A stretch of 64,000 nt of DNA from Pelagomonas calceolata. Lineage: Eukaryota. The stretch's first letter is position 1, and the number at the start of each line of letters is the position of its first letter. Below are positions 8,580 to 51,894 of the stretch, one piece after another. The stretch spans positions 2,232,001 through 2,296,000 of the forward strand of contig CAKKNE010000006.1 of NCBI GenBank assembly GCA_918797485.1, written 5' to 3'. A program made the position numbers and the translations under genes. Under the pieces are notes generated by a model. The model did not search any database. It was not told the DNA's origin and saw nothing but the letters and a program-made list of their open reading frames with translations.

Positions 8580-9130
8580 CACCGAAGGCCGATTCTAGGT
8601 CCTTCAGAGACGGATGAAACGCGCATTCATCCTAGAGGTGTATACAGAAGGTTATGTGGCTGCCCGAGCTCGGGCCACGAGAAGCCGATTCTGGAGCTCG
8701 GTCAAGTCGGTCGATTCAAATATAAACCATCGTGCTAAGGTCCCTGGTGATTGGACCGTCGCTGATAGTCTCTGGGTTATCCTATTTGCCCGTCTTTACT
8801 GATCGTTGCGGGGCGGCGTGCTGGGGACCGCAGCTAACGATTCTGTAAAGACGGACAAATAATTAGACCTCGAGATACCACGCGACGCCACCATCCAGGG
8901 GGACCATAGAACTGTTGTTATATTCGCGATCGACTCACTTACGAGTTGTCCAGAGTCGGCCGTGGGTAGACGGAGCACAGAAAGGCCCCCAGACTCGTGG
9001 AGAGTCATGAATAAATTTGCGTTTGCGTCGCAACGGTCCTAGATGTAGAATGGTCCATCCAATCGAGATGAACGAACTCTCTCTACATAGGATTCCCTGT
9101 TTCGTAAGCCGCGATCATGCAAATACGGGC
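8580..9130. repeat. Dispersed AT-richer repeat, homologous to 25720..26420 (possible degraded TE)
   Basis: GCGACGCCACCATCCAG, TGTT.TATTC..ATCGAC, CGGAGCAC.GAAAGGCCCC.GAC and AATAAATTTGCGTTT are shared, in order, with 26061-26200. Confidence 0.65.
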
Positions 9131-22508: not shown

Positions 22509-23141
22509 TTAGTCCAGTAGCCACTCGTCCCCCGACGCCTTCTCCGTAGGAGCCTCCTCCGATGCCGCCGCCGGCGGCGCCTCGTCTTCGTCATCGTCCA
22601 AACCCAAAGCCGCGTCCAATAAATCGGACGCGTCGTCCGCGAAGAGCGGGTCCTTCTCCTCCTTGACGACCGGTTCGATGTCGTCCACCGCCTCGACCTT
22701 TGTCGTCTTCTTCTGCTGCTTCTTTTTTCTTGGTTTATTGATTTTCTCGTCCTCGTCGTCGTCGACGAAGCGCCCCGCCTTCTCGAGGCGCTCCCAGGGA
22801 CTGAGCATGGCCGGGTGGTTCGCGGGAAGCCGCGCGTGGAAGGGCGCCTCGAAGAACGCGTGCGGCGCGATATTTGCTACTAAACTCAGATCTTCCAGAG
22901 GAGCGTTGTCTCTGGCAGTACCGGGCACGCAGGTCCCTTCGTAGGTCTCGTCGGGCACGTATTCGTCGGGCCAGTCCCGGAACCGATCTAGAGTAGAGTC
23001 CTCGTCCTGCTCGACATAACCAGAACCCTTCGGGGCGTAGAGGTGCCGTTTGATTGAGTGCCTCGTTGGTGTTGTCGTGACGTGGAACGCTGTTGTTGTG
23101 CAGGCGGTCGCGGCGACGGCGGCGCGGCGGAGGCGGCCCAT
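22509..23141 (-). CDS. Hypothetical plastid-targeted protein; its predicted 5'UTR intron hosts tRNA-Trp
   Basis: Leader ...ATACTTTAF (ASAFAP-like); acidic C-terminus. Confidence 0.65.
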   Translation of the reverse strand: MGRLRRAAVAATACTTTAFHVTTTPTRHSIKRHLYAPKGSGYVEQDEDSTLDRFRDWPDEYVPDETYEGTCVPGTARDNAPLEDLSLVANIAPHAFFEAPFHARLPANHPAMLSPWERLEKAGRFVDDDEDEKINKPRKKKQQKKTTKVEAVDDIEPVVKEEKDPLFADDASDLLDAALGLDDDEDEAPPAAASEEAPTEKASGDEWLLD

Positions 23142-23154
23142 CGCTGTTCTGTGC

Positions 23155-23308
23155 CTGTGGGTGTACCGTAGGCGTTGCCGCCATGGCCACCTGTAAAGTG
23201 ACCGATACGCGATTCGAACGCGTAACCTTCAGGACTGGAATCTGACGCGCTGCCGTTGCGCCAATCGGTCGGTCGAAGACAAGTAACGATGAGACGCCGC
23301 CGCGGTAC
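23155..23308 (-). mobile_element. tRNA-carrying intron element, copy 1 (154 nt)
   Basis: Minus strand GTACCGCGGCGGCGTC...tRNA...GCCTACGGTACACCCACAG|GCAC, ending 14 nt before ATG 23141. Confidence 0.65.
23199..23270 (-). tRNA. trnW: tRNA-Trp (CCA)
   Basis: GACCGAT TGGCGCAACGGCAGCGCG TCAGA TTCCAGT CCTGA AGGTT ACGCG TTCGAAT CGCGT ATCGGTC A: 7-bp acceptor stem, CCA anticodon, TTCGAAT T-loop. Confidence 0.93.
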
Positions 23309-23632: not shown

Positions 23633-24145
23633 TTACACCGTCGCATCGTCCGAAGGCGGCACGACGGGCGCCAGGCCGTTCCCATCTCTGGAATCCAAGC
23701 TCAGCGTCACGGGCCCATCATTAATTAACGACACGTCCATCATCGCCCCGAACCTCCCGTCGGCGAGCTTGGAACTTTCGGGCAGCTCTCCTCTCAAATC
23801 ACTCAGAAACGTCTCGTAGAACGCCTTAGCAGGCTCCGGGCCCATCGCGTGGCGCCAGTCGAGGTTGCCGCGCCCCTTCTTTCGTTTCAATTCGCCGTAC
23901 AACGTGAACTGCGAGACGCACAACACATCTAAACCAAGGCTCCCGACCGAATGCTTCCAGGGCCGCCCGTTTTCGTCGGCCCAGAAGTTCGTTTTCAGGA
24001 TGCGTTCGCGGCACCAAGCAGCGTCCGCGTCCACGTCGTCCCGGTGGATGCCCACGAGCACGAGCATGCCTTTGCCGATCTCGCCGACGACCTCCTCGTC
24101 GACGGTCACGCTCGCGCGCTTGACGCGCTGGAGCACGAGCCGCAT
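23633..24145 (-). CDS. DTD1: D-aminoacyl-tRNA deacylase
   Basis: MRLVLQRVKRASVTVD, LCVSQFTLYG, GRFGAMMDVSLINDGPVT. Confidence 0.95.
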   Translation of the reverse strand: MRLVLQRVKRASVTVDEEVVGEIGKGMLVLVGIHRDDVDADAAWCRERILKTNFWADENGRPWKHSVGSLGLDVLCVSQFTLYGELKRKKGRGNLDWRHAMGPEPAKAFYETFLSDLRGELPESSKLADGRFGAMMDVSLINDGPVTLSLDSRDGNGLAPVVPPSDDATV

Positions 24146-24241
24146 CGCCCGAGCGCTTGTCGCTGCGAGGAGCAGCAGAACTTGTGGGCGCGCCAGCGTA
24201 CAGTGATGGGTCGCCTCGGCAGCGTCAATCGGAAGCCGTGC

Positions 24242-24391
24242 CTGTGGGTGTACCGTCGGCATATCTCACCTGTTAAGCCCAGTGACCGATACGCGATTCG
24301 AACGCGTAACCTTCAGGACTGGAATCTGACGCGCTACCGTTGCGCCAATCGGTCGAAGAGAGGGCACGCAGAGGAGACGCGGCCGCGGTAC
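24242..24391 (-). mobile_element. tRNA-carrying intron element, copy 2 (150 nt)
   Basis: Minus strand GTACCGCGGCCGCGTC...tRNA...GCCGACGGTACACCCACAG|GCAC, upstream of the DTD1 ATG. Confidence 0.65.
24283..24354 (-). tRNA. trnW: tRNA-Trp (CCA)
   Basis: Same cloverleaf as 23199..23270 with D-loop GGTAG; identical to copy 3. Confidence 0.95.
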
Positions 24392-25719: not shown

Positions 25720-26960
25720 ACGCTAGATCACTAGGTCTTAAGGCCCGCCAAAATACACCAGCGATTGAAGGCGCCTTCTACCATCCGAATAGTACATTAT
25801 ATCAACTCCAGCCCAGTTTTCATACATATTGGACGGAACCGGAGCCGACGGCCCGCGCTCGGAGGGCGGGAGAAGAATTCTACTAGACAACTCCCGGGTT
25901 TATGTTCGTTTCCTTCCGTTTGTTGGTGGTAGAGTCCATCCATACCGCTAGAACGCCCAGCTAGACCCATCTCTTACTCCGTAGGCTCCGCGCGAAAGAG
26001 CGACTTCGCGCCCCGCGTTTATACGAATATGGACAACAAGACCTCAACCTGCGAGTATCAGCGACGCCACCATCCAGATGAACCATAACGCCGTTGTTCT
26101 ATTCACAATCGACCGACTTGCCCGTTCTCCGCGGACGACGGTACGTACGCGGAGCACCGGAAAGGCCCCAGACCGGTGGTTTATATAATAAATTTGCGTT
26201 TCGGGCGCTTTAGTAGTGGGACGGGCCAGATAACCGGCTTGATTGTGTACTACATTGCTCCGAGACCCAAAGATGCTCGGCGCGGGTCGTCGGTCTTGCG
26301 AGCCCACGATCTGGCTAGATTTTGCTCCAGACCTGAACCTACGACCATCAGCGCGTGTACCATCACCATGGACCATGACGCGATCATTTGTTCCATGATC
26401 GACCGACTTCCGCGAGGTCCAGATGCAGATGTTCACGTCCCGACCGTGGGCAGCCAAAAGTACCCTTCTTATAATGTAGATGTCATATACTTGTAGTTGA
26501 CTATCGGTGGGGTAGTATGGGGTCCAACGAGACCGCTATTACGATTCCTGGGGGCCCTCGGGTAATTGACGTTTTTGACGGGAACGGGGCGCCATCGGGC
26601 CCAAATTACACACTTTTTTCGGGGGCCGATCGGCTCCTGGAGGCCTCTCGGGGTAGGTCTGGTGGTGGGTAAGCGCCTGCACCGCATACGCCATCGATGC
26701 GGCAGCCTAGAGCTCTGGAAGCCATTGCCAAGTAATTCATGGTTCAATGAGCCGCAGTGGTGAGAGAATTGGTCGATTATGCCCCGAGCCCGGGCGCATG
26801 CGCTATAGGCGATTGCACGTGTATAGTACCGACCATATGCGCCCCTCGGGAGACCTGTTTGGCAGGGATTGACAGGATTCCACTGGTGCGGCCGCCATCG
26901 ACCGTAGGGCGCCCTCGGCCGCGAATTAAAAAAAATTCTTTTTCGGCCCCCAGTACGTGT
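25720..26960. repeat. AT-richer non-coding element with degenerate ~290-bp subunits; homologous to 8580..9130
   Basis: ACCATC-anchored blocks at 25780, 26069 and 26359; ATCGACCGACTT at ~26108 and ~26398. Confidence 0.6.
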
Positions 26961-50463: not shown

Positions 50464-51894
50464 ATGCCGCGGAGCGCCAGACACACGATGGGCGGCCGGG
50501 AAGTCCTCGACGCGAAGACGATGCTGGACCTGCTCGAGGGCTCGGCCTCCGACGGCGGGCCCACGGTCACCATCGACGTGGACGTGTTCAAGGACAACTT
50601 CGGCGCGCCGCCGCCGCGGCGGAGCAGCGTCTCGGGGGGCCGGCGGTCGAGCTCGAGCGGCGCCTCGCGCCGCCGCGAGACGGCGGACCCGGCGCAGCTC
50701 AAGGAGCTGCTCCAGGCGTGCCTACTCGAGGGCAACGACGCGGCGGCGGCCGCGAGCCCGACGAGCCAGCCGCCGCGGCCCGCGCCGCGCCGGAGCCCGC
50801 GCTTCGCCAAGCCGCGGAGGCGGATGACGTGCGACCCGCGCCTGCTGAACCGCCTCGTCATGGAGCACTCGGGCGAGATCCCGACGATCCCCGAGGAGAC
50901 GAGCGCCACGGAGTCGCTCACGTCGAACCCGTACCGCGGCCGCGTCCGTCGTAGGTGCCTTCCGACCGATTGGCGCAACGGTAGCGCGTCAGATTCCAGT
51001 CCTGAAGGTTACGCGTTCGAATCGCGTATCGGTCACTGCCAGCTCGTCGATGCGCGCTGCCGACGGTCCACCCACAGGCTCACGAGCAATCTGACGAGCA
51101 ACCCGGCGACGAGCAACCTCACGAGCGGCGTCAGCAACCTCACGTCGGGCACGGGGCTCGAGTCCTTCGAGGAGAGCCGCGCGGCGGCGGCGCACGAAGA
51201 TCCACAAGAGAACGAGGACGACGACGACGACGAGGACGACGTGAGCTACGCGCGGCCCGTCGCGGCGCGTTCGTCAATTGCGTGGACCTTCGACGAGACG
51301 CGCGCGACGATGCAGGAGCTGCGGCGCCAGCTGCAGATCGAGAAGGAGGTGTCGCGCGACGCCGAGCGCGAGCGCGACGAGCTCGCGCGCGAGTTGAGTG
51401 GAATGCGCGCGGAGCAGGCCGCTAGAAGCGAGGTGCAGCAGGCGCTCGAGGCGCAGCGCGACGCGGCGGCGGCGCGCGCGTCGTCGGCCGAGGGCCGCGC
51501 GACGCGCGCGGACGCGGCGCTCGGCCGGCAGTCCCAGGAGTTCGCGGCCATCGACGCGGACCTCGCGGCGCGGGAACGGGAGATTGAACAAAGCGCCGAG
51601 CGCGTGAAACTCGAGGCCGACGCGCGCGTCGCCGCGGCCGAGCGCGACAAGGCCGAGGCCGAGGCCGAGCTCCTCGCGTTGAGGGACGAGGCGGCGGCTT
51701 TACGGGCGCGCGTGGCGCAGCTCGAGAAGGTCAAGATCACGTCGGGCCTCGCGGCGAAGATCCAGAAGGTCGTTCAGGAGCGCGACGAGTTATTGGCGGC
51801 GGCGCGCAAGGGCGGCCGGTTCAACGACGAGAACGCGGCGCCGTTCGGCGCCGAGGACCTCTCCCAGGCCGGCGGCGAGTGCCGCCAGTCCTAG
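50464..51894 (+). CDS. Coiled-coil protein with LTSN repeats; intron 50931..51077 hosts tRNA-Trp
   Basis: After removing 147 nt the repeat reads ESLTSNP-LTSN-LTSNP-ATSN-LTSG; C-terminal CRQS (CaaX-like). Confidence 0.7.
   Translation: MPRSARHTMGGREVLDAKTMLDLLEGSASDGGPTVTIDVDVFKDNFGAPPPRRSSVSGGRRSSSSGASRRRETADPAQLKELLQACLLEGNDAAAAASPTSQPPRPAPRRSPRFAKPRRRMTCDPRLLNRLVMEHSGEIPTIPEETSATESLTSNPYRGRVRRRCLPTDWRNGSASDSSPEGYAFESRIGHCQLVDARCRRSTHRLTSNLTSNPATSNLTSGVSNLTSGTGLESFEESRAAAAHEDPQENEDDDDDEDDVSYARPVAARSSIAWTFDETRATMQELRRQLQIEKEVSRDAERERDELARELSGMRAEQAARSEVQQALEAQRDAAAARASSAEGRATRADAALGRQSQEFAAIDADLAAREREIEQSAERVKLEADARVAAAERDKAEAEAELLALRDEAAALRARVAQLEKVKITSGLAAKIQKVVQERDELLAAARKGGRFNDENAAPFGAEDLSQAGGECRQS
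50931..51077 (+). mobile_element. tRNA-carrying intron element, copy 3 (147 nt)
   Basis: GTACCGCGGCCGCGTC...tRNA...GCCGACGGTCCACCCACAG; interrupts the codon CC|G. Confidence 0.75.
50964..51035 (+). tRNA. trnW: tRNA-Trp (CCA)
   Basis: GACCGATTGGCGCAACGGTAGCGCGTCAGATTCCAGTCCTGAAGGTTACGCGTTCGAATCGCGTATCGGTCA. Confidence 0.95.

What the first reader, a model, noticed from the sequence alone, without database searches (positions are those of the whole stretch)
50931..51077. An intact tRNA gene hidden in-frame inside a coding ORF; splicing restores a protein repeat
Seen in sequence: the 147-nt cassette is 3n and stop-free, so the ORF track translates through the tRNA (PTDWRNGSASDSSPEGYAFESRIGH). 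Removing GT..AG (CC|G) joins ESLTSNP to LTSN-LTSNP-ATSN-LTSG-VSN-LTSG, a continuous repeat array. This is strong internal evidence that the cassette is an intron inserted into a pre-existing coding repeat. Its flanks are unrelated to those of copies 1 and 2, which implies an independent insertion. Gene predictors could easily mis-annotate it as coding.
Basis: partly seen in the sequence, partly recalled or inferred. Interest (0 to 1): 0.8.

Follow-up and report, generated by a model that had tools for sequence, protein, structure and literature searches.

The report
Mobile intron carrying a tRNA gene
In what is likely a marine alga, a 147-base intron that is spliced out of a protein gene's messenger RNA holds one intact tryptophan-tRNA gene between conserved ends; the same cassette sits at six or more unrelated gene positions and relatives appear to lack it at two of them, so it is likely a mobile intron that spreads a tRNA gene without breaking the genes it lands in.

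Summary
Confirmed and extended. Window 50931-51077 (147 nt, GT..AG) holds an intact tRNA-Trp(CCA). One transcriptome-sized contig and one stranded polyA read join 50930 to 51078 exactly, so it is an intron; the 476-aa read-through protein is nevertheless in NCBI nr/UniRef. A tRNA-independent metagenome scan gave six more cassettes, all with this tRNA, marking at least six unrelated sites, all sense within genes, at C|GC junctions. A sister lineage lacks it at this site; eight of ten informative records lack it at copy 2. It works like an introner (mobile intron) with a tRNA gene as cargo. No consistent target-site duplication, no cargo-free copy, not a SINE. Eight of nine copies lack a poly-T terminator, so the tRNA is probably cut from the host transcript (untested). 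How it moves is inferred: probably ragged copy-paste. I found no published precedent. New variant of a known kind; interest 0.72.

The parts
50464..50930 (+). Exon 1 of the host gene (coiled-coil protein of unknown family, 427 aa when spliced)
   Evidence: no Pfam hit; Atlas hits all under 0.9, coiled-coil only
50931..51077 (+). tRNA-carrying spliceosomal intron (cassette, site A), 147 nt, GT..AG
   Evidence: splice joint 50930->51078 in X3 contig and one X22 read
50931..50946 (+). Conserved 16-nt 5' end: donor, one arm of an imperfect inverted repeat, and a GCGTC box about 20-30 nt before the tRNA
   Evidence: 94-100% alike in 7 of 7 full cassettes
50964..51035 (+). tRNA-Trp(CCA) gene, 72 nt, intact cloverleaf, A and B boxes, no T-run behind it (first TTTT 969 nt on)
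51059..51077 (+). Conserved 19-nt 3' end: other arm of the inverted repeat, then an invariant 8-nt acceptor tail
   Evidence: 89-100% alike; pairs with the 5' end in folds
51078..51894 (+). Exon 2 of the host gene, starting with the rest of the LTSN-type repeat
24242..24391 (-). Cassette site B (copy 2), 150 nt, tRNA 24283-24354, in the leader of a D-aminoacyl-tRNA deacylase gene; present/absent among close relatives
   Evidence: splicing not tested
23155..23308 (-). Cassette site C (copy 1), 154 nt, tRNA 23199-23270, ending 13 nt before the ATG of ORF 22509-23141; same site filled in L052
   Evidence: splicing not tested

Best explanation
The 147 bases are a spliced-out intron made of one intact tRNA-Trp gene between conserved ends, and they are likely one copy of a mobile intron family that has been copied into several unrelated genes, where splicing would keep the host gene working and the tRNA would likely be cut out of the host transcript. 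Shown: splicing at this site; shared ends at six or more sites; filled and apparently empty alleles. Inferred: (1) a tRNA-Trp gene once came to lie between a donor and an acceptor, probably inside a small introner of this alga; (2) copies spread by copy-paste through a DNA or cDNA template, often dragging a few exon bases along, rather than by cut-and-paste with a target duplication or by exact reverse splicing; (3) only sense insertions that splice cleanly survive in this gene-dense genome; (4) recombination between copies through the identical tRNA keeps ends and tRNA alike and swaps spacers; (5) RNase P and RNase Z release the tRNA from the intron, as no terminator follows it.
For: Splice joint. 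Same ends at three window sites with unrelated flanks. Scan with the 3' end alone: 6 of 52 loci are cassettes and all 6 hold this tRNA; sites D (L014, coding, 148 nt), E (L035/L051, probable coding, 147 and 142 nt), F (L011, 35 nt before an ATG), G (L029, chimeric upstream) are new, L052 is site C. Removing the 148-nt cassette of L014 joins two frames that match one 1675-aa protein P0055. 6 of 6 assignable sites are sense within a gene; C precedes GT at 5 of 5 sites with an intact 5' side and GC follows AG at 7 of 7. Empty alleles: site A in a sister lineage on contigs to 36.7 kb; site B in 8 of 15 listed cluster members, against 2 filled, 1 unclear, 4 uninformative. Ragged ends: about 22+9 extra exon bases at B and 3+2 extra residues at D against the empty forms (protein-level inference); B and C share a 16-nt leader, B, F and G an 11-nt tail. 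tRNA has 0-1 differences in the 7 intact or end-cut copies while spacers at one site (L035/L051, exons 37/40 and 40/40 alike) are 0.63 and 0.48 alike, near shuffled 0.52 and 0.48. No T4 within 175 nt in 8 of 9 copies.
Against: Raw-read support for the splice is 1 read; the strong support is one contig of a run only guessed to be RNA. Splicing at sites B-G was not observed; the 209-aa protein that starts inside cassette B is also listed from a transcriptome source (mmetsp), which suggests retained or cut transcripts there. Empty alleles are read from proteins, not DNA; gain versus loss is not polarised; the 8 empty records at B may be one population. No genome was available, so copy number and cargo-free copies are unknown; the scan needed 17 exact bases. 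One copy (L051) has lost 7 nt of the anticodon arm, so some copies are dead. Most tRNA-Trp reads in polyA RNA come from a different variant at other loci (380 of 410 and 196 of 214 reads), so the cassette is not the only source and may be dispensable. Mature tRNA from a cassette was not observed. Leader similarity across all sites is not significant (438 of 3000).
Confidence: 0.7

Rival explanations
1. A MITE-type introner (non-autonomous DNA transposon) that captured a tRNA gene and is moved by a transposase using the imperfect terminal inverted repeats; target duplications have decayed or been overwritten.
For: The two ends pair as a 10-11 bp imperfect stem; cognate arms pair better than mixed arms (62 of 5040 permutations); fixed C|GC target; TIR-bearing introners are reported in P. 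calceolata (PMC9481584 supplementary note 3) and an Aureococcus introner adds exon bases on insertion (PMC9860276); intron start and commonest exon start differ by one base, like a decayed 4-nt duplication; the other intron in L014 has a perfect 4-nt duplication.
Against: An invariant 8-nt tail lies outside the repeat at all sites; no site-specific duplication (439 of 5000 random sets score as high, 1152 of 5000 without site A); 0 cargo-free copies among 6 metagenome hits and in the window; spacer-only pairing is not significant (565 of 5040).
Confidence: 0.15
2. The excised intron RNA itself is mobile: lariat or circle is reverse-spliced into other transcripts and fixed by reverse transcription.
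For: Always sense within genes (6 of 6); at site A the residues on both sides of the junction match the sister lineage without extras; no duplication; intron circles have been proposed as a route to transposition (PMC11146597 abstract).
Against: Sites B and D seem to carry extra exon bases, which exact reverse splicing would not give; sense bias also follows from selection alone.
Confidence: 0.08
3. Ordinary old introns into which a tRNA gene was inserted independently; the shared ends are only this alga's splice consensus plus a tRNA promoter box.
For: The other intron in L014 also ends in a C/A-rich CAG and shares 7 nt near its start; a GCGTC-like box also precedes tRNA copies at other loci; nested tRNA genes are common in nematodes (264 of 608, PMC3342880).
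Against: Relatives lack the whole intron, not just the tRNA, at sites A and B; 35 nt of shared ends were found only around this tRNA, never in other introns; all cassettes carry one T-stem variant that is a minority elsewhere.
Confidence: 0.05
4. The 49 codons are real protein sequence, or the copies are a tRNA-derived SINE.
For: 3n and stop-free in three alleles of site A (147, 147, 144 nt); public annotation keeps it.
Against: Spliced RNA; alleles were found through full-length proteins, which selects for open frames; their spacer residues are unrelated; other coding sites are not 3n. A SINE would begin at the tRNA and end in a tail; the unit begins 31-40 nt before it and has no tail.
Confidence: 0.02

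Closest known systems
Introners (Huff et al. 2016, seen only as summarised in PMC11282704; Gozashti et al. 2022, PMC9860276; putative introner elements of Pelagomonas calceolata, PMC9481584)
   Same: Short, repeated, GT-AG introns with family-specific ends at unrelated genic sites; presence/absence between relatives; terminal inverted repeat-like pairing; some families lack duplications or add exon bases.
   Different: The body is an intact, conserved tRNA gene; copies are alike at ends and cargo but not in spacers; no site-specific duplication; low copy number as far as seen. The word tRNA does not occur in the main text of PMC9860276 or PMC9481584.
tRNA genes nested in introns of Caenorhabditis genes (PMC4999229 abstract; PMC3342880 passages)
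   Same: tRNA gene inside an intron; expression can depend on the host Pol II promoter.
   Different: There, losses and gains concern the nested gene inside a host intron; here tRNA and intron come and go together and the intron is hardly longer than the tRNA.
Intron-encoded snoRNAs, e.g. 72 intronic snoRNAs of Ostreococcus tauri (PMC7671301 passages), and the GUT15 intronic tRNA-like RNA (PMC6152437, search listing only)
   Same: A structured RNA predicted to be released from a spliced intron of a Pol II transcript.
   Different: Cargo here is a canonical tRNA with A and B boxes, and the host intron is itself a repeated, apparently mobile unit; release from the intron is untested here.
tRNA-derived SINEs (recalled)
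   Same: tRNA sequence in a dispersed repeat.
   Different: Unit starts 31-40 nt before the tRNA, tRNA is intact and central, no tail, no duplication, ends are splice sites.

Membership tests
Spliceosomal (U2-type) intron | GT..AG ends removed precisely from RNA | tested here: met
   joint 50930->51078 in one contig (depth 114.6) and one stranded read; sites B-G not tested
Introner | Family of introns with similar sequence at unrelated loci | tested here: met
   ends 89-100% and tRNA 99-100% alike at 6-7 sites with background-level flanks; spacers not alike
Introner | Recent gain shown by empty orthologous sites | tested here: met
   site A empty in sister-lineage proteins on contigs to 36.7 kb; site B empty in 8 of 10 informative records; protein-level only, direction not polarised
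Introner | High copy number and end-to-end similarity of young copies | tested here: inconclusive
   no genome held; no two cassettes alike end to end among 7 full copies
MITE-type (DNA transposon) introner | Terminal inverted repeats at the element ends | tested here: inconclusive
   imperfect 10-11 bp repeat, but 8 nt inside the 3' end
MITE-type (DNA transposon) introner | Site-specific target-site duplication | tested here: not met
   439 of 5000 random sets score as high
MITE-type (DNA transposon) introner | Autonomous transposase partner with the same ends | not testable with these tools
   no genome
tRNA-derived SINE | Element starts at the tRNA 5' end and ends in an A-rich or simple tail | tested here: not met
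   31-40 nt of element before the tRNA, conserved acceptor end instead of a tail
Functional nuclear tRNA gene | Intact cloverleaf, anticodon, A and B boxes | tested here: met
   T-stem differs from the other genomic variant by a compensatory pair
Functional nuclear tRNA gene | Poly-T Pol III terminator just downstream | tested here: not met
   1 of 9 copies (L011); at site A first TTTT 969 nt away; background 239 of 2844 45-nt tiles
Functional nuclear tRNA gene | Mature, charged tRNA made from this copy | not testable with these tools
   polyA libraries do not hold mature tRNA

The most novel reading that the evidence does not exclude
This alga makes tRNA as a passenger of Pol II transcripts: its Trp tRNA genes lack terminators, appear in polyA RNA as tandem arrays, and no TFIIIC subunit is annotated in the visible 87% of the P. 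calceolata gene table; the cassette is then a self-propagating 'tRNA-tron' that uses any host gene as its promoter, creating a new intron and a new working tRNA gene in one step.
Probability: 0.2. Interest if true: 0.92.

Novelty: new variant of a known kind. Interest (0 to 1): 0.72.

Why it matters
How new spliceosomal introns arise and how tRNA genes multiply are both open questions. Here one 150-nt unit seems to do both: an introner whose cargo is useful to the host, which would let selection keep and spread new introns. Filled and empty alleles among close relatives, and a variant T-stem that marks cassette-born tRNA, make origin, mobility and processing directly testable in a cultured organism. 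Practical point: the public 476-aa protein includes a translated tRNA and should be 427 aa.

Tried and rejected
No whole genome held. Reads were not obtained for copies 1 and 2, so their splicing and DNA-level empty alleles stay open; X12 could not be read. 3' end pattern in viral contigs: 0 hits; tRNA pattern in prokaryote genomes: 0. Homologue search for the site E host protein: none passed among 23 candidates, so that ORF rests on L035/L051 agreement only. P0005 looked like a non-3n allele of site A but its sequence after the cassette is unrelated, probably a chimeric contig: not counted. A 7-nt repeat 15 nt upstream of the donor at site A looked like a target duplication, but it lies in a coding repeat whose first unit exists in the sister lineage, and the test over sites was not significant. 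A shared exon leader at all sites: not significant. Co-varying spacer stems: mixed, 3 of 7 cassettes beat shuffles at 5%. 46 of 52 metagenome loci had neither tRNA nor the 5' end and were dropped as chance; their origin was judged by eye. Host protein family: none. Earlier scan findings: none in this genome or by sequence; eight archaeal or phage notes do not bear on it. Huff et al. 2016 was not held.

Full report
Setting. The window is eukaryotic, gene-dense, intron-poor and 63% GC. Runs that hold it are one organism with DNA contig sets of 32-71 million letters, plus marine metatranscriptomes. A pelagophyte alga near Pelagomonas calceolata (63% GC, 0.45 introns per gene; PMC9481584 passages) is my inference; it was not established. 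No whole genome was available.

The observation. 50931-51077 is 147 nt, GT..AG; it holds tRNA-Trp(CCA) at 50964-51035 (ARAGORN; Rfam 61 bits). ORF 50464-51894 reads through it (476 aa); without it the ORF is 427 aa and the LTSN-type repeats are contiguous. Of 4 runs asked, 3 were laid: X3 has one 899-nt contig, depth 114.6, no mismatch, that joins 50930 to 51078; X22 has 1 stranded read with the same joint; X21 has 0 at junction depth 1-2. X3 is only guessed to be RNA. The read-through protein P0030 is held by NCBI, UniRef and NCBI nr: the predicted mis-annotation is real.

Copies 1 (23155-23308, minus) and 2 (24242-24391, minus) share the ends of copy 3: a 16-nt 5' end and a 19-nt 3' end. Neither end occurs elsewhere in the window in a form that pairs up, at up to 3 mismatches. 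A metagenome scan with the 3' end alone, which does not ask for a tRNA, gave 52 loci; 6 hold this tRNA upstream (L011, L014, L029, L035, L051, L052) and 46 hold neither tRNA nor 5' end and were dropped as chance. Four of the 6 are complete; L011 is cut by its contig end; L029 is chimeric upstream; L051 lacks 7 nt of the anticodon arm. They define sites A (this one, coding), B (leader of a D-aminoacyl-tRNA deacylase gene, Pfam PF02580), C (leader of an unknown gene; also filled in L052), D (L014, coding, 148 nt), E (L035 and L051, probable coding, 147 and 142 nt), F (L011, 35 nt before an ATG) and G. All 6 assignable sites are sense within a gene. C precedes GT at 5 of 5 sites with an intact 5' side, GC follows AG at 7 of 7; C|GC is 4.7% of window positions. 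At D, removing the cassette joins two frames that match one 1675-aa protein.

Anatomy. Among 7 full cassettes: 5' end 94-100% alike, 3' end 89-100%, intact tRNA 99-100%, spacers mostly 0.4-0.65 against 0.41-0.54 for shuffles (one pair, C and D, 0.82 in the 5' spacer), flanks of different sites about 0.5. At site E the exons are 37/40 and 40/40 alike but the spacers are not; alleles of site A seen as proteins also differ in spacers, two sharing the 5' and differing in the 3' one. This pattern fits selection on ends and tRNA with recombination between copies. The ends pair as an imperfect stem that leaves an 8-nt tail; with the cloverleaf enforced, the arms close a long stem beneath it at about 1 kcal/mol cost in 5 of 6 cassettes and 5 in one. 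Cognate arms pair better than mixed arms (62 of 5040 permutations), spacers alone do not (565 of 5040): weak. No T-run follows the tRNA in 8 of 9 copies, whereas short poly-T tracts are the usual Pol III terminators (PMC13578239 section 20).

Empty sites. Site A: sister-lineage orthologues (81% identical) keep the repeat and lack the 49 aa, on contigs up to 36,705 nt, hence most likely DNA. Conspecific forms without the insert (P0002, P0032) may simply be transcripts. Site B: of 15 listed of 16 cluster members, 8 read straight across the place, 2 are filled (one is the window's own), 1 is unclear, 4 say nothing; the missing block is about 180 nt, some 30 nt more than the intron, so these are not spliced products of the window's allele. 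Site D: P0055 lacks the cassette and 5 flanking residues but may be a transcript; P0056 (64%, 36.6-kb contig) has an unbroken ORF. All this is read from proteins; gain versus loss is not polarised.

Mechanism. A SINE is excluded by anatomy. A classic MITE-type introner is weakened by the invariant tail outside the repeat, by the lack of site-specific duplication (439 of 5000) and by 0 cargo-free copies. Exact reverse splicing is weakened by the extra exon bases at B and D and by flank pieces shared between sites (B with C upstream; B, F, G downstream; downstream test 207 of 5000 with all 7 sites, 1402 of 5000 without G). I therefore favour templated copy-paste of the cassette with ragged ends, filtered by selection for sense, spliceable and frame-keeping insertions. 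The tRNA would be released by RNase P and Z, both annotated in P. calceolata. Against importance: 380 of 410 and 196 of 214 polyA reads over the T-stem come from another variant at other loci, some in tandem arrays without T-runs, so the cell has other Trp tRNA genes; and a protein starting inside cassette B is listed from a transcriptome source, which hints at incomplete splicing there.

A bolder lead. In the P. calceolata gene table (cut at row 14,549 of about 16,700) Pol III subunits, Brf1, Bdp1, Maf1, La and SNAP43 are annotated, but 13 TFIIIC terms and accessions gave no true hit. Divergence, the missing chromosome or a different species could explain this; two literature searches gave nothing on it in their listings.

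Literature. Seen: PMC9481584 (passages, supplement 2 part 1 of 2 without its figures, term searches in supplement 4); 10.1101/2024.10.30.620910, PMC11282704, PMC9860276, PMC3342880, PMC7671301 (passages); PMC13578239 (passages, section 20); PMC4999229 and PMC11146597 (abstract and outline); Huff et al. 2016 not held. Searches listed no report of an introner or newly gained intron that carries a tRNA gene; subscription journals and unread supplements (introner sequence tables of PMC9860276, figure S3 and table S3 of PMC9481584) may hold the family unlabelled. SINE features are recalled.

Verdict. The intron is real (about 0.97). A mobile, tRNA-carrying intron family is likely (about 0.8 to 0.9 counting the rival mechanisms); the specific route of copying and of tRNA release is inferred (0.7 for the package at best). 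New variant of a known kind; interest 0.72.

Noticed in passing
window 50964-51036, reads of X21/X22: PolyA reads show tandem tRNA-Trp arrays elsewhere in the genome with 26-32 nt spacers rich in CA repeats, a GTCTCC box like the cassette's, and no T-run; stranded, sense.
   Followed up: partly
PMC9481584 supplement 4: No TFIIIC subunit annotated in the visible 87% of P. calceolata genes, while Pol III and TFIIIB are.
   Followed up: partly
L053-L057 (about 30% GC viral contigs, one a giant-virus bin): Carry a tRNA-Trp with 4 differences (two compensatory pairs) from the cassette tRNA, no cassette ends, T-run 42 nt downstream; probably host-derived.
   Followed up: partly
L014, minus strand, about 1051-1170: A second, 120-nt intron in the same gene with a perfect 4-nt duplication at its junction: an ordinary introner-like intron, useful as a control.
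   Followed up: partly
window 4953, 7208, 20208, 23503, 27028, 29536, 35850, 37152, 41829, 62109: A 24-nt motif with inverted ends occurs 10 times at up to 5 mismatches, apparently between genes; promoter element or tiny mobile element.
   Followed up: no
window 8882-9000 and 26061-26179: Two 119-nt intergenic-looking copies, 73% alike; unexplained.
   Followed up: no
window 23633-24262 (-): The public 209-aa D-aminoacyl-tRNA deacylase starts at an ATG inside cassette B; its N-terminus is probably mis-annotated too. A tRNA gene in the leader of a tRNA-editing enzyme is probably coincidence.
   Followed up: partly
window 50464-51894: Host protein has conserved RRxTxDP motifs, a coiled coil and a KEN-like C-terminal motif in orthologues; motif names recalled; possibly a cell-cycle protein.
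   Followed up: no
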